Source: Escherichia coli (GTDB lineage: Bacteria > Pseudomonadota > Gammaproteobacteria > Enterobacterales > Enterobacteriaceae). From it: a stretch of DNA of 64,000 nucleotides. The notes below the pieces were generated by a model. The model did no database searches. It worked only from the letters and a program-made list of their open reading frames with translations, and had not been told where the DNA came from. The stretch is from NCBI RefSeq assembly GCF_046105845.1, contig NZ_CP151004.1. One strand, written 5' to 3'. How positions within the stretch are numbered: the stretch's first letter is position 1; the number at the start of each line of letters is the position of its first letter. Made by a program: the position numbers and the translations under genes. This document shows positions 4,556-46,220 of the stretch, piece by piece.

Positions 4556-5875
4556 ATGGATATCTGCTCCCGAAACGAGAAATTAGCGATTAGAAGACCA
4601 GCGGTACTGGTTGCACTGGCACTTTTACTGTGTAGTTGCAAAAGCACGCCTCCAGAGTCAATGGTGACACCACCAACAGGTTCGAAGCCACCAGCTACGA
4701 CGCAACAATCGTCACAACCGATGCGTGGCATCTGGCTGGCCACAGTGTCTCGCCTCGACTGGCCACCGGTTTCCTCGGTTAACATTAGTAACCCCACCAG
4801 CCGGGCCCGTGTACAACAACAGGCGATGATCGACAAACTGGATCATCTGCAACGTCTCGGCATAAACACGGTCTTTTTCCAGGTCAAGCCAGACGGTACC
4901 GCCCTGTGGCCATCGAAAATTTTGCCGTGGTCCGATCTTATGACCGGTAAGATTGGTGAAAATCCGGGTTACGATCCGCTGCAATTTATGCTCGACGAAG
5001 CCCACAAGCGTGGGATGAAAGTACACGCCTGGTTTAACCCCTATCGCGTATCGGTTAATACGAAGCCCGGTACTATCAGGGAACTGAATAGCACTCTGTC
5101 TCAACAACCAGCGAGCGTCTATGTGCAACACCGCGACTGGATCAGAACGTCCGGCGATCGCTTTGTCCTCGACCCGGGCATCCCTGAGGTTCAGGACTGG
5201 ATCACATCAATAGTCGCAGAAGTGGTTTCCCGCTATCCGGTAGATGGCGTGCAGTTTGACGACTATTTCTATACTGAGTCACCAGCTTCACGGCTAAATG
5301 ATAACGAAACGTACCGCAAATACGGAGGCGCATTTGCGTCAAAAGCAGACTGGCGGCGCAACAATACTCAGCAGTTAATTGCGAAGGTATCGCACACCAT
5401 TAAAAGCATTAAGCCGGAAGTCGAATTTGGCGTTAGCCCGGCAGGCGTGTGGCGTAACCGATCACACGATCCGCTCGGTTCCGATACCCGAGGCGCGGCA
5501 GCCTATGACGAATCATACGCTGACACCCGTCGATGGGTGGAACAAGGATTGCTGGATTACATTGCTCCCCAAATTTACTGGCCGTTCTCACGGAGTGCCG
5601 CACGTTATGACGTTTTGGCAAAATGGTGGGCGGATGTCGTTAAACCGACCAGGACCCGCCTGTATATCGGTATCGCCTTCTATAAAGTGGGTGAACCTTC
5701 AAAGATAGAGCCAGACTGGATGATTAACGGCGGCGTACCGGAACTGAAAAAGCAGCTCGATCTTAACGATGCCGTGCCAGAAATTAGCGGCACAATCTTG
5801 TTCCGTGAGGACTATCTGAATAAACCGCAGACTCAACAAGCGGTTAGCTATCTGCAAAGTCGTTGGGGCAGTTAA
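4556..5875 (+). CDS. yddW: Putative lipoprotein YddW (glycoside hydrolase-like family), 439 aa
   Basis: Track ORF; N-terminal signal with LLCSC lipobox-like motif; position between gadC and dosC. Confidence 0.85.
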   Translation: MDICSRNEKLAIRRPAVLVALALLLCSCKSTPPESMVTPPTGSKPPATTQQSSQPMRGIWLATVSRLDWPPVSSVNISNPTSRARVQQQAMIDKLDHLQRLGINTVFFQVKPDGTALWPSKILPWSDLMTGKIGENPGYDPLQFMLDEAHKRGMKVHAWFNPYRVSVNTKPGTIRELNSTLSQQPASVYVQHRDWIRTSGDRFVLDPGIPEVQDWITSIVAEVVSRYPVDGVQFDDYFYTESPASRLNDNETYRKYGGAFASKADWRRNNTQQLIAKVSHTIKSIKPEVEFGVSPAGVWRNRSHDPLGSDTRGAAAYDESYADTRRWVEQGLLDYIAPQIYWPFSRSAARYDVLAKWWADVVKPTRTRLYIGIAFYKVGEPSKIEPDWMINGGVPELKKQLDLNDAVPEISGTILFREDYLNKPQTQQAVSYLQSRWGS

Positions 5876-31138: not shown

Positions 31139-32527
31139 ATGGCACTGCAAAATGAGAAAACTAGTCGTTATCTTTTGCGCGACTGGAAACCAGAAAATCC
31201 GGCCTTCTGGGAAAATAAAGGAAAACACATTGCACGAAGAAACCTCTGGATATCAGTCAGTTGTCTACTTCTTGCCTTCTGTGTCTGGATGCTATTTAGC
31301 GCAGTTACTGTTAATCTCAATAAAATCGGTTTTAATTTCACTACCGATCAACTCTTTTTATTAACCGCATTACCCTCCGTTTCTGGCGCATTATTGCGTG
31401 TCCCCTACTCCTTTATGGTGCCTATATTTGGTGGACGCCGATGGACGGTTTTTAGTACTGCAATCCTGATTATTCCTTGCGTCTGGCTCGGAATTGCCGT
31501 GCAGAATCCGAATACTCCTTTTGGGATATTTATCGTTATCGCTTTGCTATGCGGTTTTGCAGGTGCGAACTTTGCTTCGAGCATGGGCAATATCAGTTTC
31601 TTCTTCCCAAAAGCCAAACAAGGGAGCGCACTTGGGATTAATGGCGGATTAGGAAACTTAGGTGTAAGTGTGATGCAGCTGGTTGCACCGCTGGTCATTT
31701 TTGTACCCGTATTTGCCTTTCTCGGCGTCAATGGCGTACCGCAGGCCGACGGTTCGGTGATGTCGCTGGCGAATGCCGCATGGATTTGGGTGCCATTACT
31801 GGCGATTGCCACGATCGCCGCCTGGTCAGGGATGAATGATATCGCCAGTTCACGCGCGTCAATTGCCGACCAGCTGCCAGTGTTACAACGCCTGCATCTC
31901 TGGCTGCTGAGCCTGCTTTACCTTGCCACCTTCGGTTCGTTTATCGGTTTTTCTGCGGGTTTTGCCATGCTGGCGAAAACTCAGTTCCCTGATGTGAATA
32001 TTCTGCGCCTGGCGTTCTTTGGCCCATTTATTGGTGCCATCGCGCGGTCGGTTGGTGGTGCTATTTCCGATAAATTCGGCGGAGTGCGGGTGACGTTGAT
32101 CAACTTCATTTTTATGGCGATTTTCAGCGCCCTGCTGTTCCTTACCTTACCGGGCACAGGCTCCGGTAATTTCATCGCATTTTACGCCGTATTTATGGGG
32201 TTGTTTCTGACCGCAGGTCTGGGAAGTGGTTCTACTTTCCAGATGATCGCCGTCATCTTTCGCCAGATAACCATTTATCGGGTGAAGATGAAAGGCGGTA
32301 GTGATGAGCAAGCTCAGAGAGAAGCCGTCACCGAAACGGCGGCGGCTCTGGGCTTTATCTCAGCCATTGGCGCAGTGGGCGGCTTTTTCATTCCGCAGGC
32401 GTTTGGCATGTCGCTCAATATGACCGGCTCTCCGGTAGGCGCGATGAAAGTGTTTTTAATCTTCTACATCGTTTGTGTGCTGCTGACCTGGCTGGTTTAT
32501 GGTCGGCGGAAGTTCAGCCAAAAATAA
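31139..32527 (+). CDS. narU: Nitrate/nitrite transporter NarU (MFS), 462 aa
   Basis: Track ORF 31097..32527; start at Met MALQNEKTSRYLLRDW... Confidence 0.94.
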   Translation: MALQNEKTSRYLLRDWKPENPAFWENKGKHIARRNLWISVSCLLLAFCVWMLFSAVTVNLNKIGFNFTTDQLFLLTALPSVSGALLRVPYSFMVPIFGGRRWTVFSTAILIIPCVWLGIAVQNPNTPFGIFIVIALLCGFAGANFASSMGNISFFFPKAKQGSALGINGGLGNLGVSVMQLVAPLVIFVPVFAFLGVNGVPQADGSVMSLANAAWIWVPLLAIATIAAWSGMNDIASSRASIADQLPVLQRLHLWLLSLLYLATFGSFIGFSAGFAMLAKTQFPDVNILRLAFFGPFIGAIARSVGGAISDKFGGVRVTLINFIFMAIFSALLFLTLPGTGSGNFIAFYAVFMGLFLTAGLGSGSTFQMIAVIFRQITIYRVKMKGGSDEQAQREAVTETAAALGFISAIGAVGGFFIPQAFGMSLNMTGSPVGAMKVFLIFYIVCVLLTWLVYGRRKFSQK

Positions 32528-32534
32528 GAGATCG

Positions 32535-32605
32535 ATGCCTGACACGTCTTATCAGGCTACAACCGTGTCGCACCCGACAAGGCATCAGATCCCAATTCAT
32601 TCCTG
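32535..32605. repeat. REP-like nested palindromes in narU-narZ intergenic region
   Basis: GCCTGACACGTCTTATCAGGC and flanking GATGCCT...AGGCATC inverted repeats. Confidence 0.35.
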
Positions 32606-32621
32606 GAGCAGGAGTTATGTC

Positions 32622-35600
32622 ATGAGTAAACTTTTGGATCGCTTTCGCTATTTCAAACAAAAGGGCGAAACCTTTGCCGATGGTCACGGACAGGTGATGC
32701 ATAGCAACCGCGACTGGGAGGACAGCTATCGCCAGCGTTGGCAATTCGACAAAATCGTGCGTTCCACCCACGGTGTTAACTGTACAGGCTCCTGTAGCTG
32801 GAAAATCTACGTTAAAAATGGTCTGGTGACCTGGGAAATCCAACAGACCGACTACCCGCGCACTCGCCCTGACCTGCCCAATCATGAACCTCGCGGCTGC
32901 CCGCGTGGCGCAAGTTACTCCTGGTATCTTTACAGCGCTAACCGCCTGAAATACCCGCTCATTCGCAAACGACTGATTGAACTGTGGCGCGAAGCCCTCA
33001 AACAACACAGCGATCCGGTACTGGCGTGGGCATCGATTATGAACGATCCGCAAAAGTGCCTGAGCTACAAACAAGTGCGTGGGCGCGGCGGGTTTATCCG
33101 CTCCAACTGGCAGGAACTAAACCAGCTGATTGCCGCCGCTAACGTCTGGACCATCAAAACCTACGGCCCGGATCGCGTTGCCGGTTTCTCGCCGATCCCG
33201 GCGATGTCGATGGTTTCTTACGCCGCCGGAACACGTTATCTTTCACTATTAGGTGGCACCTGTTTAAGCTTCTACGACTGGTATTGCGACCTGCCGCCCG
33301 CCTCGCCGATGACCTGGGGCGAGCAAACCGACGTGCCAGAATCTGCCGACTGGTATAACTCCAGCTACATCATCGCCTGGGGGTCTAACGTACCGCAGAC
33401 ACGTACGCCGGACGCCCACTTCTTTACCGAAGTACGCTACAAAGGCACTAAAACCATCGCCATTACCCCTGACTACTCTGAAGTGGCCAAATTGTGCGAC
33501 CAGTGGCTGGCACCAAAACAAGGCACTGATAGCGCCTTGGCGATGGCAATGGGCCATGTGATTTTAAAAGAGTTTCATCTCGATAATCCCAGCGACTACT
33601 TTATCAACTACTGCCGCCGCTACAGCGACATGCCGATGCTGGTAATGCTGGAACCTCGCGACGATGGCAGCTACGTACCCGGGCGCATGATCCGCGCGTC
33701 TGACCTGGTAGATGGACTGGGCGAAAGCAACAATCCGCAGTGGAAAACCGTGGCGGTTAATACCGCAGGTGAACTGGTGGTGCCGAACGGTTCGATTGGT
33801 TTTCGCTGGGGAGAAAAAGGCAAATGGAATCTGGAATCTATTGCCGCCGGTACGGAAACCGAATTGTCATTAACCCTGCTTGGTCAACATGACGCCGTTG
33901 CAGGCGTGGCCTTCCCCTACTTTGGCGGCATTGAAAATCCGCATTTTCGTAGCGTAAAACATGATCCTGTCCTGGTGCGTCAATTACCCGTTAAAAACCT
34001 GACATTAGCCGATGGCAGCACCTGTCCGGTGGTTAGCGTTTATGATTTGGTACTGGCGAATTATGGCCTCGATCGCGGGCTGGAAGATGAAAACAGCGCG
34101 AAAGATTACGCTGAAATCAAACCGTACACCCCAGCCTGGGGTGAGCAAATTACCGGCGTGCCGCGCCAGTATATTGAAACCATCGCCCGTGAATTTGCCG
34201 ATACCGCCCATAAAACGCATGGGCGCTCGATGATTATCCTCGGTGCTGGCGTCAACCATTGGTATCACATGGACATGAACTACCGTGGGATGATCAACAT
34301 GCTGATCTTCTGCGGTTGTGTCGGGCAAAGCGGTGGCGGCTGGGCACACTATGTCGGTCAGGAAAAACTGCGCCCGCAAACCGGCTGGTTGCCACTGGCC
34401 TTTGCGCTCGACTGGAACCGACCACCGCGCCAGATGAACAGCACCTCGTTTTTCTACAATCATTCCAGCCAATGGCGCTATGAAAAAGTCTCTGCTCAGG
34501 AGTTACTTTCACCGATCGCCGATGCCAGTAAGTACAGCGGTCATCTGATTGATTTCAACGTTCGCGCCGAACGTATGGGCTGGCTACCTTCTGCGCCGCA
34601 GCTGGGGCGTAACCCGCTCGGGATTAAAGCTGAAGCCGACAAGGCCGGATTATCCCCCACAGAATTTACCGCCCAGGCGCTGAAATCGGGCGATTTACGC
34701 ATGGCCTGCGAACAACCAGATAGCGGCAGCAATCATCCGCGTAATTTGTTTGTCTGGCGTTCTAACCTGCTTGGCTCCTCCGGCAAAGGCCACGAGTATA
34801 TGCAGAAGTATCTGCTGGGGACCGAAAGCGGGATTCAGGGCGAGGAACTCGGTGCCAGCGACGGGATCAAACCGGAAGAAGTCGAGTGGCAAACTGCGGC
34901 GATTGAAGGCAAGCTCGACCTGCTGGTGACGCTCGACTTCCGTATGTCCAGTACCTGCCTGTTCTCCGATATCGTTCTGCCCACCGCCACCTGGTACGAA
35001 AAAGACGATATGAACACCTCGGATATGCATCCGTTTATTCATCCGCTTTCTGCGGCGGTCGATCCGGCGTGGGAATCACGCAGCGACTGGGAAATCTACA
35101 AAGGTATCGCCAAAGCCTTTTCGCAAGTGTGCGTGGGCCATCTTGGCAAAGAAACCGACGTGGTATTACAACCACTGCTGCATGACTCTCCGGCAGAACT
35201 CTCACAGCCGTGTGAAGTGCTCGACTGGCGCAAAGGCGAATGCGATCTGATTCCAGGTAAAACTGCGCCCAATATTGTGGCGGTGGAACGCGACTACCCT
35301 GCTACCTATGAACGCTTTACCTCGCTCGGGCCATTGATGGACAAACTTGGCAACGGCGGTAAAGGGATTTCGTGGAATACCCAGGATGAAATCGATTTCC
35401 TCGGCAAACTCAACTACACCAAGCGTGAAGGCCCGGCACAGGGGCGTCCGCTGATTGACACCGCCATTGACGCATCAGAAGTGATTCTGGCGCTGGCACC
35501 GGAAACCAACGGTCATGTTGCAGTCAAAGCGTGGCAGGCGCTGGGCGAGATAACCGGACGCGAACATACCCATCTGGCGCTGCACAAAGAGGACGAGAAG

Positions 35601-40248: not shown

Positions 40249-40255
40249 AACCGTT

Positions 40256-40320
40256 GCCTGATGCGCTTCGCTTATCAGGTCTATGTATGCCGGATAAGGC
40301 GTTTACGCCGCATCCGGCAA
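40256..40320. repeat. REP/BIME element (two palindromic units) between convergent yddE and nhoA
   Basis: GCCTGATGCGCTTCGCTTATCAGG and GCCGGATAAGGCGTTTACGCCGCATCCGGC, classic REP sequences. Confidence 0.75.
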
Positions 40321-40331
40321 CCTGACATAAA

Positions 40332-41177: not shown

Positions 41178-41349
41178 CAGGCGTTTCCCTTAGTGGTTTT
41201 CTCAACTTATAACCTGGAATAGACGCCGCACCGGCTATTTTGTGCGATCGCGGACATGCATCACGTTTGCAAATCGCCAATCCCGTTAATTTCGTTACTT
41301 ATTGCGTTACGGACTACGCTTAAAAAAACCTTCTTCGCGAGGCGATACC

Positions 41350-41919
41350 ATGAGCCGATTTATCCCCGTCGAATTACACCATGCCAGCCGTCTGTTAAAT
41401 CATGGCGCAACTGTCATGATCACCAGTTTCGATGAGCAATCCCAGCGGCGTAACATTATGGCAGCAGCCTGGTCAATGCCGGTGGAGTTTGAACCGCCAC
41501 GTGTGGCGATTGTGGTAGATAAATCGACATGGACCAGGGAGTTGATTGAACGTAATGGTAAGTTTGGCATCGTTATCCCGGGTGTTGCAGCAACTAACTG
41601 GACGTGGGCGGTGGGAAGTGTGTCGGGGCGTGATGAAGATAAGTTTAATTGCTATGGTATTCCGGTTGTGAAAGGTCCGGTGCTTGGTTTGCCGCTGGTC
41701 GAGGAAAAATGTCTGGCGTGGATGGAGTGTCGCCTGCTACCTGCGACTTCTGCGCAAGAAAAATACGACACACTGTTTGGCGAGGTAGTATCAGCAGCGG
41801 CAGACGCACGGGTATTTGTCGAAGGCCGCTGGCAGTTTGATGATGATAAACTCAATACACTACATCATTTAGGTGCTGGCACGTTTGTTACCAGCGGCAA
41901 GCGTATTACCGCTGGCTAA
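41350..41919 (+). CDS. yddH: Flavin reductase-like domain protein, ~189 aa
   Basis: Track ORF 41302..41919; start at internal Met MSRFIPVELHHASRLL... Confidence 0.88.
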   Translation: MSRFIPVELHHASRLLNHGATVMITSFDEQSQRRNIMAAAWSMPVEFEPPRVAIVVDKSTWTRELIERNGKFGIVIPGVAATNWTWAVGSVSGRDEDKFNCYGIPVVKGPVLGLPLVEEKCLAWMECRLLPATSAQEKYDTLFGEVVSAAADARVFVEGRWQFDDDKLNTLHHLGAGTFVTSGKRITAG

Positions 41920-41987
41920 AGAATCATATGCAGCGACCGGTTTTTTAAGCAATGTTTCCATATGAGTTAAAAGCACATTTTATTTCA

Positions 41988-42185
41988 CGATTGTATATTC
42001 TTAGTGAAGATTAATTTATCCTCACCAACATCATAGTAATTGCGTATTATAGCTTCATTGATAAAGCCCTGTTTTGTATAAAATGCGCGGGCGGCACTAA
42101 AATCGATATGGCTGGAGGTCTCTACTAAAAGTAGTCTTGCGTGATTGGGACAGGTCAAGAAAAAGCAGTTTTGCAGTTTTTTATT
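41988..42185 (-). pseudogene. GNAT-family acetyltransferase C-terminal fragment (no start codon, ~60 codons)
   Basis: Minus-strand stop-to-stop frame translates ...HARLLLVETSSHIDFSAARAFYTKQGFINEAIIRNYYDVGEDKLIFTKNIQS with the A..FY.K.GF GNAT motif; no Met and no upstream acetyl-CoA-binding motifs. Confidence 0.4.
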
Positions 42186-42531
42186 TCAGGGCACAGTTGC
42201 GAAAATTGAATCCCTTATGGACTAATGTGAGAAAATTCCGAGGTATGACTGTTTTGATATAGTGGACAATCAAGCGTCTCGAATTAACAATGAATTTCAG
42301 GTGCCAAGCCTTACAATTTGTAGCATGACGGATATAGGACAACATTAGGAAATCGGACAGAAAATTCATCATAATAAAATGACAACTTATCTCTTTCTCT
42401 CACTTTCTGAGAAATTTCACAAAAGTATAAACTAAGCCAATATGCCTTTATATATAAAAAATACTCATGCTTATTTTTATCGGAAAAATCCAAAATTTTG
42501 TCAAGACCATCAAAAATATCTTTATCATGAT

Positions 42532-43448
42532 CTATATGTACTCTTGATGATGGATCGCTGTGGCGAACTTTTCTGCGGTTAAATCAGCAGAACTGATATA
42601 ATATCTGACCGTCATTTCTGGCTCTTTCTTTTGTTCTGCTATTATGGACCGAAAGGAGACTGCAACGCATAATTTCTTCAGTCCTTTCCATTCAAACGTG
42701 AAATCAATAAGTTCATCAGGGACATCGCAAACAATATGAAGACGGATTTCTTCTCTGCCGTGACTCTTTTCACTAATGGCGTAACTGTCATGTTCTGGAT
42801 TATTTAATTCTTTCAGTGGAAATTTTTCCTCAAAGGCTTTATTAAGCCGCCCCTGATTTCCTTTTACAGCGAATAAATAATCACCGCCCTGTTTTGTATC
42901 TTCTCTGCAATATCTTTCTGGCAACCCATCGCATCAGTTGTGATGATTTTTCCTTTAATATCCAGCATGTTAAGAAGTTCAGGGATAGCTGTAATTTCAT
43001 TGGATTTCTCATCCGTCCTGATCTGTCCGATGACCAGACTGTGCATTGTTGAGAACGCACTAATGACATGAATCGCTCCCTTGCGGCGACTCTTGTCATA
43101 AGAATGCCGGAGTGTTTTTCCATCAATTGCGATGACGTCTTTATCATCTGAAGAATGGCAGTCACGCATCCAGTTAATAAAGCACTCGTGAAATTTTGCA
43201 GGACTGATACAGGATACAACTCTGGCAATGGTATCGTGAACAGGAATACCATTATCAAAATTACCATATTGCTTCAAAAAATCGAGATGTGTTTCCCCAA
43301 AATCCTCTATATCTTCCCAGCCTTCTGCACCCGAAATAACGGCACAAATAGTCAACAGTAGAATATCCGATAATTTATGTTCCACTTTCCAGGCTTGTCT
43401 GTAATCGGGGATAATAGAAATATGTCCCATCAATTTTTTAAGTTCCAT
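42532..43448 (-). mobile_element. ISAs1-family (H-repeat-associated, YdcC-like) transposase, inactivated: frameshift after ~codon 187 and 3'-truncated
   Basis: Two overlapping minus-strand track ORFs (42864..43448, 42532..42924) in different frames; together match an H-repeat transposase up to ...TAEKFATAI, then diverge/stop; frame change maps to a short T-run near 42892-42895. Confidence 0.8.
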
Positions 43449-43836
43449 TTTGTTCTCCTTAATTATGTAAGGAGTATTTGATCATGTATAAGCAATAAAA
43501 ACAGCTTCAGGAAATAAGGAATATCGCAATTTTTAAACATAAAATGCGAATCGTTCAATACAAAAAAGCAGCGTTGCGTAATCTTTCCCTGATTAAATAC
43601 GCTACCGCCCTACCCTGATGACATGATCTGCACTGCACTATCATATCGACATGTTTCTCTACATGCGAAAAGATGTTTTATTTTTGGATTATATTAAATT
43701 GATATTTCATATAAAAAACGAAATTACATCAATCATATAAATAGTTGTACCAACTTTAATTACTATTCATAGCAAACAAATGGATATCCAGTTAACTACG
43801 CCAGTGATTCATTAACATTAACCTCCGGCATTATTG

Positions 43837-44454
43837 TTAAATAATTTCATTCCTTTTTAATACTTCTTGTAATTTCGGTAACTGACATACAGCATCAGCA
43901 ATCGCACTGATATTCGTAGCATTATCCTGAAACCATTCATGCCCCGGCCCCCATGTGCGCATGGTGCAGAGATAACAGTCCACCAGCGTTAGTTGCTCAC
44001 CAAAGGCATAAGGTTCAGCGGTCAATTGTGAATTCAGCCAGATATAAAGCGATTTGCGATATTCAATTACATTCCTCTTTAACTGTTCAGGCGCGTCAGG
44101 AGCCCAACGCTCAGGGTAATCGGCGAAAGTGAATGTTGGATAGACATTAGCAACCAGCCAGACCAATAGCCGTTGAAACTGCTGACGTTCGGCGCGCCCA
44201 AGCGGTGGCGCAAGGTCCGGGCGACGATCGAGAACCATCAATGCAATCGCCGCTGTCTCCGTCATAATCTCGTCATTTTCCAGCGCCAGTGTCGGAATCT
44301 GACACAACGGGTTCAGGGTTTTCAATAACTCGCGTGAAGTTCCCTCGTGGTCAAAACCACTGACATCAACGAACTGATAAGGAATATCAGCCAGTGTTAG
44401 CATCAGCTCACTGATTGTAGAGCCCCATCCGGGTACGCCATACACCTTAATCAT
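43837..44454 (-). CDS. yncG: Glutathione S-transferase family protein, 205 aa
   Basis: Track ORF; GST-fold N-terminus (MIKVYGVPGWGST...). Confidence 0.88.
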   Translation of the reverse strand: MIKVYGVPGWGSTISELMLTLADIPYQFVDVSGFDHEGTSRELLKTLNPLCQIPTLALENDEIMTETAAIALMVLDRRPDLAPPLGRAERQQFQRLLVWLVANVYPTFTFADYPERWAPDAPEQLKRNVIEYRKSLYIWLNSQLTAEPYAFGEQLTLVDCYLCTMRTWGPGHEWFQDNATNISAIADAVCQLPKLQEVLKRNEII

Positions 44455-44720
44455 ATGTCCCTCACAATCTTTTAAAGATTAAGTGTAGGACAGTACACAG
44501 GTTAACCAGCAAAAGGATTTGTCATTTTTTCGTCAGTTGTATTATTCCCCTTCAGGATTGTAAGGGGATGTTTTGCATCGTTTATCGATAACGGGTAGGA
44601 TGCTGCGCCGATAGTTTTATACCCATAAAGAATAATGGTGATAACTATCATCGCCAGGATGAATAAACATTGTTCATGGCAACTTATATGACTTTTTCAT
44701 TAAAGCAATCAGGGAGAGCA

Positions 44721-46220
44721 ATGAGTAAACACGACACCGACACTTCAGATCAACACGCCGCGAAACGCCGCTGGCTTAATGCCCACGAAGAGGGGTATCA
44801 CAAAGCGATGGGCAATCGCCAGGTGCAGATGATCGCCATTGGCGGCGCGATTGGCACCGGCTTGTTTTTAGGTGCAGGAGCCCGACTGCAAATGGCGGGG
44901 CCAGCACTGGCACTGGTCTATTTAATCTGCGGCCTGTTTTCATTTTTTATTCTGCGTGCATTGGGTGAGCTGGTGTTACACCGCCCTTCCAGTGGCAGTT
45001 TTGTCTCTTATGCCCGTGAGTTTTTAGGAGAGAAAGCCGCTTACGTTGCAGGCTGGATGTACTTCATCAACTGGGCGATGACGGGGATTGTCGATATTAC
45101 CGCCGTTGCACTGTATATGCATTACTGGGGTGCGTTTGGCGGCGTGCCGCAGTGGGTCTTTGCGCTCGCTGCGCTGACCATCGTTGGCACCATGAATATG
45201 ATTGGTGTGAAATGGTTTGCCGAGATGGAGTTCTGGTTTGCGCTTATTAAAGTGCTCGCCATTGTGACCTTTTTGGTCGTGGGTACAGTGTTCCTCGGTA
45301 GTGGTCAGCCGCTGGATGGCAACACCACTGGCTTTCATTTAATTACCGATAACGGCGGCTTCTTCCCCCACGGTTTGCTACCTGCGCTGGTGTTGATTCA
45401 GGGCGTAGTGTTTGCTTTTGCCTCCATTGAAATGGTGGGTACAGCTGCCGGAGAATGTAAAGATCCGCAGACCATGGTGCCTAAAGCGATTAACAGTGTG
45501 ATTTGGCGTATTGGCCTGTTTTACGTCGGCTCCGTGGTGTTGCTGGTTATGTTATTGCCGTGGAGCGCGTATCAGGCGGGGCAAAGTCCGTTCGTGACGT
45601 TTTTCTCTAAACTGGGTGTGCCGTACATCGGCAGCATTATGAACATTGTGGTGCTGACCGCTGCCCTCTCCAGCCTGAACTCAGGTCTGTACTGCACCGG
45701 ACGTATTCTGCGCTCGATGGCGATGGGCGGTTCCGCACCGAGTTTTATGGCGAAAATGAGTCGTCAGCATGTGCCGTATGCCGGGATTCTGGCGACACTG
45801 GTTGTGTATGTCGTCGGCGTATTCCTCAACTATCTGGTGCCGTCGCGCGTATTTGAGATTGTGTTGAACTTCGCGTCGCTGGGAATCATCGCTTCATGGG
45901 CGTTTATCATCGTGTGCCAGATGCGCCTGCGTAAAGCGATTAAAGAAGGCAAAGCAGCGGATGTCAGTTTTAAACTGCCTGGCGCGCCCTTCACTTCCTG
46001 GCTGACATTACTGTTTTTGCTGAGCGTCCTGGTGCTGATGGCGTTCGATTACCCGAACGGGACTTATACCATCGCGGCGCTGCCGATTATCGGTATTCTG
46101 CTGGTTATAGGCTGGTTTGGTGTGCGCAAACGCGTTGCTGAAATTCACAGCACTGCGCCAGTCGTCGAGGAAGATGAAGAACAACAGGAAATTGTGTTTA
46201 AACCTGAAACGGCGAGTTAA
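44721..46220 (+). CDS. ansP: L-asparagine permease (APC family), 499 aa
   Basis: Track ORF 44670..46220; start at Met MSKHDTDTSDQHAAKRRWLN... Confidence 0.94.
   Translation: MSKHDTDTSDQHAAKRRWLNAHEEGYHKAMGNRQVQMIAIGGAIGTGLFLGAGARLQMAGPALALVYLICGLFSFFILRALGELVLHRPSSGSFVSYAREFLGEKAAYVAGWMYFINWAMTGIVDITAVALYMHYWGAFGGVPQWVFALAALTIVGTMNMIGVKWFAEMEFWFALIKVLAIVTFLVVGTVFLGSGQPLDGNTTGFHLITDNGGFFPHGLLPALVLIQGVVFAFASIEMVGTAAGECKDPQTMVPKAINSVIWRIGLFYVGSVVLLVMLLPWSAYQAGQSPFVTFFSKLGVPYIGSIMNIVVLTAALSSLNSGLYCTGRILRSMAMGGSAPSFMAKMSRQHVPYAGILATLVVYVVGVFLNYLVPSRVFEIVLNFASLGIIASWAFIIVCQMRLRKAIKEGKAADVSFKLPGAPFTSWLTLLFLLSVLVLMAFDYPNGTYTIAALPIIGILLVIGWFGVRKRVAEIHSTAPVVEEDEEQQEIVFKPETAS

What the first reader, a model, noticed from the sequence alone, without database searches (positions are those of the whole stretch)
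41988..42185. Orphan GNAT acetyltransferase C-terminal fragment
A minus-strand stop-to-stop frame encodes the C-terminal ~55 residues of a GNAT fold (...SAARAFYTKQGFINEAII...), with no start codon and no upstream acetyl-CoA-binding motif. It is either a remnant of a deleted gene or evidence of a recombination breakpoint next to yddH.
Basis: seen in the sequence. Interest (0 to 1): 0.3.

Follow-up and report, generated by a model that had tools for sequence, protein, structure and literature searches.

The report
Leftover tail of a deleted acetyltransferase gene
This is the dead last third of a small GNAT acetyltransferase gene, left when a roughly 463-base deletion removed its promoter and first 103 codons in a gene-shuffling hotspot of the E. 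coli chromosome; it is an ordinary gene remnant.

Summary
Window 41988-42143 (minus strand, stop codon 41985-41987) encodes the last 51-52 residues of a 155-aa GNAT acetyltransferase. It is 94% identical to residues 105-155 of the intact gene that E. coli VE-T9 carries at the same place beside yddH (tblastn E 7e-29). Residues 1-104, including the acetyl-CoA motif QRQGVG, occur nowhere in the window.

Compared with VE-T9, the window lacks 463 bp: 157 bp upstream of the gene plus about 103 codons. The ends share at most 3 bp.

They are spacer DNA that follows an unrelated 211-aa gene, and only the last 80 codons of that gene survive (42311-42551). Beyond it lies a crippled H-repeat/ISEc1 element (42552-43591). 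A roughly 45-bp relic of pptA sits between the fragment and yddH.

About 238 of 5426 complete E. coli genomes share this deletion. About 416 others carry the whole gene with a premature stop.

Verdict: a non-functional pseudogene remnant at the known RhsE/T6SS variable site. Low interest.

The parts
41985..42143 (-). GNAT acetyltransferase 3' remnant: codons 104-155 of a 155-codon gene plus its stop codon (41985-41987). It keeps the C-terminal third, which aligns to the C-terminal part of the GNAT profiles, and lacks the N-terminal two thirds including motif A.
   Evidence: tblastn of the VE-T9 GNAT: residues 105-155, 94% identity, E 7e-29. Family alignment. blastn against L017 and L003. NCBIfam rimI profile positions 101-129 of 132.
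42141..42146 (.). Deletion junction. Relative to E. coli VE-T9 (L017), bases 4906-5368 (463 bp) are missing: 157 bp upstream of the GNAT start plus about 103 codons. The two blastn segments overlap by 3 bp, so there is little or no microhomology.
   Evidence: window 42551..42144 matches L017 4504..4905; window 42146..41300 matches L017 5369..6216. Four-way alignment. The same junction, with CAC at codon 104, occurs in L001, L009 and L010.
42144..42310 (-). Spacer DNA that normally follows the 211-aa gene.
   Evidence: Collinear with L009 5242-5405 and L017 up to position 4905.
42311..42551 (-). 3' fragment (last about 80 codons plus stop) of an uncharacterised AT-rich 211-aa gene. The gene is annotated 'hypothetical protein' or 'aminopeptidase' in other E. 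coli and has no Pfam or NCBIfam match.
   Evidence: The window frame ...[75 protein letters not shown] matches the C-terminus of the L009 4606-5241 product. Family scans are empty.
42552..43591 (-). Defective H-repeat (ISAs1-family ISEc1, ydcC-like) element. 1040 of 1291 bp are retained. A 1-bp deletion near 42896 frameshifts the transposase. The last 249 bp of the element, plus 9 bp of flank, are deleted relative to strain 1190.
   Evidence: blastn against L001 and K-12. Indel map and tblastn of YdcC, with residues 1-210 in frame -3 and 176-305 in frame -2. ORF list.
41920..41964 (-). Probable relic of the 3' end of pptA (tautomerase). About 45 bp, about 70% identical to K-12 pptA, at the same distance from the yddH stop; it reads ..METLLKKP.. 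against K-12 ..MEALIKKP..
   Evidence: Alignments; K-12 PptA translation. Weak on its own (short and diverged), but supported by its position.
41350..41919 (+). yddH (flavin reductase family), the conserved neighbour. It is intact and converges on the fragment.
   Evidence: ORF list; annotation of the homologous genes.

Best explanation
The fragment is a non-functional pseudogene remnant. A 155-aa accessory GNAT acetyltransferase, RimI-like and of unknown substrate, once sat beside yddH, downstream of a two-gene AT-rich cassette (186-aa and 211-aa genes). This arrangement survives in E. coli VE-T9. A single deletion of about 463 bp, with at most 3 bp of microhomology, removed the gene's upstream region, its start codon and about 103 codons. 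The lost codons include the N-terminal two thirds of the fold and the acetyl-CoA motif A (QRQGVG, residues 84-89). The last 51-52 codons were left fused to the spacer behind the 211-aa gene. Later events removed the 186-aa gene and the 5' part of the 211-aa gene next to an H-repeat/ISEc1 copy. In the window's lineage, a further 258-bp deletion then clipped the end of that IS. The remaining peptide cannot form a GNAT fold or bind acetyl-CoA. Shown directly: the homology, the breakpoint, the absence of the 5' part, and the shared junction in about 238 E. coli genomes. Inferred: the order of events, and that the fragment is not expressed.
For: The intact gene lies at the same locus in VE-T9. The collinearity break defines a 463-bp deletion. 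Only residues 105-155 are found in the window. The family alignment places motif A upstream of the break. The full-length orthologue passes the Pfam gathering scores for Acetyltransf_7, _1 and _10, and it aligns over its whole length to PDB 2r7h, a putative GNAT, at E 2e-13. The identical junction is present in strain 1190, an ST69-type strain and CB6837, which indicates one ancient event. The 405-bp flank occurs in 238 of 5426 genomes, always once per genome. Among truncated alleles, non-synonymous differences equal or exceed synonymous ones (4:1, 3:2, 3:1), which fits relaxed constraint. No promoter-like site lies upstream on the minus strand. Other E. coli alleles of the same gene are also decayed. 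Codon 72 is TGG>TGA in L003, and ATCC 25922 has that change plus a 1-bp deletion. A 126-aa truncated form exists (P0012). Motif A is altered to G87E in VE-T9 and G89R in L003.
Against: A 57-aa TTG-initiated ORF exists and is annotated as a hypothetical protein in some records, so expression of a small peptide is not formally excluded. The synonymous/non-synonymous counts are too small to be statistically meaningful. The fragment is still 94% identical to the intact allele, so its decay since the deletion is modest. Pfam finds nothing in the fragment alone.
Confidence: 0.93

Rival explanations
1. The truncation was produced by the neighbouring H-repeat/ISEc1 element, either by IS-mediated adjacent deletion or by recombination between H-rpt copies. 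On this reading the fragment marks an IS junction.
For: An H-rpt copy lies 405 bp away. Other alleles show H-rpt pieces fused near the same point: P0003 joins transposase residues directly to ARLLLVETSS. The junction between the IS end and the 211-aa gene in strain 1190 does look like an IS-adjacent deletion of 1404 bp.
Against: The GNAT junction is not at an IS end. It joins the GNAT to spacer DNA of the 211-aa gene, and both sides are collinear with VE-T9, which has no H-rpt there. In ST69-type genomes the same junction sits about 1.8 kb and two intact genes away from the nearest H-rpt fragment.
Confidence: 0.04
2. The 57-aa ORF (TTG 42158 to 41988) is a real small gene that has been retained for a new function.
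For: The ORF is open in the window and in L001, L009 and L010. It is annotated as a hypothetical protein in some E. coli records. The haplotype persists in about 238 genomes despite 4-7% flanking divergence.
Against: I saw no Shine-Dalgarno sequence upstream of the TTG (read), and no promoter-like site was found. Amino-acid changes accumulate at least as fast as silent ones. One third of a GNAT fold is unlikely to fold on its own. The ORF stays open simply because it inherits the old reading frame.
Confidence: 0.03
3. It is a complete GNAT gene broken only by frameshifts, with the N-terminal part lying in other frames just upstream.
For: An A-run (AAAAAA) at the upstream stop and overlapping 60- and 63-aa ORFs in the other two frames initially suggested this.
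Against: tblastn with the full 155-aa protein finds no match to residues 1-104 in any frame of the window. The upstream ORF is the C-terminus of the unrelated 211-aa gene.
Confidence: 0

Closest known systems
GNAT (Gcn5-related N-acetyltransferase) superfamily: an uncharacterised 154-157-aa RimI-like subfamily of Enterobacterales (e.g. E. coli VE-T9 WP_284345355.1, Salmonella P0013, Phytobacter P0026). Nearest solved structure: PDB 2r7h, 'putative D-alanine N-acetyltransferase of GNAT family'.
   Same: Residues 105-155 are 94% identical to the E. coli orthologue and 80% identical to the Salmonella orthologue. They align to the C-terminal third of the GNAT profiles and of 2r7h.
   Different: Only one third of the domain remains. 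There is no motif A, no N-terminal part of the fold, no start codon and no promoter region. It descends from the family but is not a working member. The family's substrate is unknown, and the RimI scores are far below the equivalog cut-offs.
H-repeat / ISEc1 (ISAs1 family), the ydcC element of the K-12 RhsE region
   Same: The adjacent 1040 bp are 96% identical to K-12 ydcC/H-rpt. They lie in the same orientation and at the same chromosomal site.
   Different: The window copy is frameshifted and lacks its last 249 bp. It did not create the GNAT junction.
K-12 arrangement pptA-yddH, a convergent overlapping pair listed as an excludon candidate in PMC12288877
   Same: Same yddH neighbour. A relic of about 45 bp of the pptA 3' end is still recognisable.
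   Different: pptA itself is gone. The GNAT remnant occupies its place, so the convergent coding overlap no longer exists.

Membership tests
GNAT acetyltransferase superfamily | Significant match to a GNAT profile (Pfam Acetyltransf_1/7/10) at or above the gathering score | tested here: not met
   The 66-aa fragment alone has no Pfam hit even at E<=10. NCBIfam rimI scores 20.6 bits against a cut-off of 86.4, E 3.8e-4. The full-length orthologue does pass: PF13508 34.9 vs 27, PF00583 28.7 vs 20.7, PF13673 24.2 vs 23.6. Descent from a member is therefore shown, but membership of the fragment itself is not.
GNAT acetyltransferase superfamily | Acetyl-CoA-binding motif A (Q/R-x-x-G-x-G/A) | tested here: not met
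   The motif is QRQGVG at residues 84-89 of the family. The window retains only residues 104-155.
GNAT acetyltransferase superfamily | Complete domain of about 150 residues, including the N-terminal substrate-binding part | tested here: not met
   tblastn finds no residues 1-104 in any frame of the 64-kb window.
GNAT acetyltransferase superfamily | Homology of the retained segment to the C-terminal part of bona fide GNATs | tested here: met
   E 7e-29 to E. coli VE-T9 and E 2e-27 to Salmonella P0013. It aligns to 2r7h residues 128-173 through the orthologue.
RimI (ribosomal protein S18-alanine N-acetyltransferase) equivalog | Score above the TIGR01575 / NF007025 equivalog cut-offs | tested here: not met
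   The full-length orthologue scores 33.9 vs 86.4 and 24.1 vs 173. It is RimI-like only in the general GNAT sense.
ISAs1-family IS (H-rpt / ISEc1), for the neighbouring element | Complete 1291-bp element with both ends and an intact 378-aa transposase | tested here: not met
   1040 bp are retained. There is a 1-bp frameshift near 42896, and the last 249 bp are deleted.
GNAT-type toxin of a toxin-antitoxin pair (TacT/AtaT-like) | Conserved small antitoxin gene immediately upstream | tested here: not met
   Intact homologues have unrelated neighbours in Salmonella (integrase island), Phytobacter (IS3, marR/MFS) and E. coli. No conserved partner gene is present.

The most novel reading that the evidence does not exclude
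The GNAT gene beside yddH has been inactivated in E. coli in several independent ways: a 5' deletion (about 238 genomes), TGG>TGA at codon 72 with or without a frameshift (about 416 genomes), a C-terminal truncation (P0012), and substitutions at the motif-A glycines even in 'intact' ORFs. This could reflect selection for loss of the enzyme rather than neutral decay. Alternatively, replacing pptA may have abolished the convergent pptA-yddH transcriptional overlap and so changed yddH expression.
Probability: 0.1. Interest if true: 0.35.

Novelty: already known. Interest (0 to 1): 0.1.

Why it matters
It matters little in itself. It is a well-resolved example of how the yncG-yddH (RhsE/T6SS) hotspot of E. 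coli accumulates gene wreckage. It shows that annotation pipelines sometimes call the leftover 57-aa ORF a hypothetical protein when it should be flagged as a pseudogene remnant. The shared deletion junction is a clean, phylogenetically informative marker for a set of about 238 sequenced E. coli genomes, ST69 strains among them.

Tried and rejected
The following led nowhere or were rejected.

1. A Pfam scan of the fragment alone gave no hit. I attribute this to its length, because the orthologue passes.

2. I tested the idea that the upstream 60- and 63-aa ORFs are frameshifted N-terminal GNAT pieces. It is rejected: they belong to, or overlap, the 3' end of an unrelated 211-aa gene.

3. I tested the idea that the H-rpt made the break. 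It is rejected by collinearity with VE-T9.

4. Two exact-match scans of GTDB species representatives, one with the window-specific IS-deletion junction and one with the GNAT deletion junction, found nothing. The exact source strain is therefore unidentified. Flanking identity places it in the E. coli/Shigella group, at 99.4% to ST69-type strains across narU-narZ.

5. Pfam and NCBIfam scans of the 186-aa and 211-aa cassette proteins gave no significant family match; the only hit was a sub-threshold Phage_min_tail match for the 186-aa protein.

6. The literature search found no description of this GNAT. It found only the Rhs site table and the pptA-yddH excludon listing.

7. The promoter/terminator scan found nothing on the relevant strand.

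Full report
**Observation.** The minus-strand stop-to-stop frame at window 41985-42188 reads *NKKLQNCFFLTCPNHARLLLVETSSHIDFSAARAFYTKQGFINEAIIRNYYDVGEDKLIFTKNIQS*. A mechanical ORF of 57 aa starts at TTG 42158. On the fragment alone, Pfam finds nothing even at E<=10. NCBIfam gives a sub-threshold RimI hit (E 3.8e-4) that aligns residues 30-57 to profile positions 101-129 of 132, the very end of a GNAT domain. Homology settles the question.

**Locus.** The surrounding genes are narV, yddE, nhoA and yddH (+ strand, 41350-41919). After the region in question come yncG (43837-44454, minus strand) and ansP (44670-46220). This is the E. coli K-12 b1453-b1465 neighbourhood. There the interval between yncG/yncH and yddH holds rhsE, ydcD, yncI, the H-repeat transposase gene ydcC and the tautomerase gene pptA. 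It is listed as Rhs site 5, 'b1455-b1461', in PMC3032704. Other E. coli carry a PAAR-VgrG-M35 peptidase T6SS island at this place. The window belongs to the E. coli/Shigella group. It is 99.4% identical to ST69-type strains across narU-narZ and at best 99.0% across ansP-yncE, but only 93-96% identical to the best E. coli matches across yddH and the fragment. The locus is therefore a mosaic.

**The intact gene.** A protein search with the fragment returned short E. coli products. Some of them extend upstream into ...MLWISPSHQRQGVGHLLINEIEKELTIKQARLLLVETSS..., which is the GNAT motif A. Their contigs put the gene directly beside yddH. In L003 the reading frame 4776-5243 is a complete 155-codon GNAT gene interrupted by TGA at codon 72. 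Related sequences have TGG at that codon. ATCC 25922 has the same TGA plus a 1-bp deletion in an A-run. E. coli VE-T9 has an uninterrupted 155-aa ORF, annotated 'GNAT family N-acetyltransferase', at the same position beside yddH.

A search with the reconstructed protein found intact 154-157-aa homologues, 55-81% identical, in Salmonella, Enterobacter (on a plasmid), Phytobacter, Kluyvera, Citrobacter, Serratia, Yokenella and Aeromonas. Their genomic contexts are unrelated and often mobile: an integrase island in Salmonella, and IS3 with marR/MFS neighbours in Phytobacter. The full-length protein passes the Pfam gathering scores for Acetyltransf_7, _1 and _10. It aligns end to end with PDB 2r7h, a putative GNAT (E 2e-13). 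It is far below the RimI equivalog cut-offs. It is thus an accessory GNAT of unknown substrate.

**Breakpoint.** tblastn of the VE-T9 protein against the whole window finds only residues 105-155, at 42140..41988 (94% identity, E 7e-29), and nothing for residues 1-104. At the DNA level, window 42146..41300 matches VE-T9 L017 5369..6216 (94.6%), and window 42551..42144 matches L017 4504..4905 (90.4%). The window therefore lacks L017 4906-5368, which is 463 bp. That stretch comprises 157 bp upstream of the GNAT start plus about 103 codons. The two matching segments overlap by 3 bp, so this is an illegitimate deletion with little or no microhomology.

Motif A (QRQGVG, residues 84-89) and everything N-terminal of it are gone.

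**What lies upstream.** Window 42311-42551 is the 3' end (about 80 codons) of an AT-rich 211-aa gene. In ST69-type strains this gene follows a 186-aa gene behind the VgrG/M35 island. Neither protein has a significant Pfam or NCBIfam match. Window 42552-43591 is an H-repeat/ISEc1 copy. The element is 1291 bp long in K-12 and in strain 1190. The window copy has a 1-bp frameshift near 42896 and lacks the last 249 bp of the element plus 9 bp of flank, a 258-bp deletion relative to strain 1190.

In strain 1190 the complete IS end abuts the middle of the 211-aa gene. Relative to the ST69-type arrangement this is a 1404-bp deletion that starts exactly at the IS end, which fits an IS-adjacent deletion. 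The GNAT junction, by contrast, is not at an IS end. It is shared by genomes in which the nearest H-rpt piece is about 1.8 kb away. The IS therefore did not truncate the GNAT.

**pptA relic.** Between the GNAT stop and the yddH stop, about 45 bp (41920-41964) align with the 3' end of K-12 pptA. Identity is about 70%, the distance from the yddH stop is the same, and the peptide reads METLLKKP against MEALIKKP. This suggests that the GNAT-bearing segment once replaced most of a divergent pptA allele. The evidence is short and only suggestive.

**Distribution.** Among 5426 complete E. coli genomes, 660 contain DNA of this GNAT and 433 cover at least 80% of the gene region. About 416 of these are at least 99% identical to the TGA-bearing L003 allele. 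The 405-bp flank that accompanies the truncated allele occurs in 238 genomes, once each and always on the chromosome. Strain 1190, WP8-S17-ESBL-12, CB6837 and the window all share the junction codon CAC, which indicates a single origin. Among the truncated alleles, non-synonymous differences equal or exceed synonymous ones (4:1, 3:2, 3:1). This fits relaxed constraint, although the counts are small. Other alleles are also damaged: a 126-aa truncated form (P0012), G87E in motif A of VE-T9, and G89R in L003.

**Mechanism and verdict.** The fragment is a dead remnant. It lacks a promoter (none detected), a credible start codon, the acetyl-CoA site and two thirds of the fold. The most likely history is as follows.

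- An accessory GNAT was acquired beside yddH, at the expense of pptA.
- A 463-bp deletion removed its 5' part.
- IS-adjacent and further small deletions trimmed the upstream cassette and the IS itself.

Shown directly: the homology, the breakpoints and the distribution. Inferred: the order of events and the lack of expression.

The frameshifted-whole-gene rival is refuted. The IS-mediated junction and the functional small ORF remain unlikely. This is an ordinary pseudogene remnant in a known hypervariable site, so novelty and interest are low.

Noticed in passing
window 42552-43591 (-): The H-repeat/ISEc1 (ydcC-like) copy is doubly defective. A 1-bp deletion near 42896 splits the transposase into 194-aa and 130-aa ORFs. 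A 258-bp deletion removed the last 249 bp of the element plus 9 bp of flank, so it can no longer transpose.
   Followed up: yes
window 42311-42551 (-): A second orphan fragment: the last 80 or so codons of an uncharacterised AT-rich 211-aa gene. In ST69-type E. coli this gene follows a 186-aa gene behind a VgrG/M35-peptidase T6SS island. Neither protein matches any Pfam or NCBIfam family, and they may be orphan effector/immunity genes.
   Followed up: partly
window 41920-41964 (-): A roughly 45-bp relic of the pptA 3' end (about 70% identical to K-12) lies between the GNAT stop and the yddH stop. pptA itself is absent, so the K-12 convergent pptA-yddH overlap (listed as an excludon candidate in PMC12288877) is lost.
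   Followed up: partly
window 30000-33000 versus 41300-42551: Mosaic ancestry. The window is 99.4% identical to the ST69-type strain WP8-S17-ESBL-12 across narU-narZ, but only 93.1% identical to the same strain across yddH and the fragment. This implies a recombination boundary somewhere between about 33 kb and 41 kb. The yddE-nhoA region has its best match (98.8%) in a different strain, which carries pptA instead.
   Followed up: partly
window ~40250-40331 (yddE-nhoA intergenic): A query spanning yddE-nhoA hits a median of 11 places per E. coli genome. The intergenic ORF translation (..CRIRRLRRIRQ..) looks like a REP/BIME-type repeat.
   Followed up: no
window 30000-33000: E. coli records annotate a leucine-rich-repeat domain protein gene between narU and narZ under the match to this stretch. 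I did not examine it.
   Followed up: no
L017 5063-5530, L003 4776-5243, L018 1577-2050: Even the 'full-length' E. coli alleles of this GNAT look decayed. VE-T9 has G87E in motif A. L003 has G89R plus TGA at codon 72. ATCC 25922 adds a 1-bp deletion. An allele with an unaltered motif A (QRQGVG) and an open full-length frame was not seen among the few E. coli copies examined.
   Followed up: partly
window 43592-43836: Between the left end of the H-rpt and yncG, the window has none of the yncH, rhsE, ydcD or T6SS island content seen in other strains. This is the most reduced version of the locus among those compared.
   Followed up: partly
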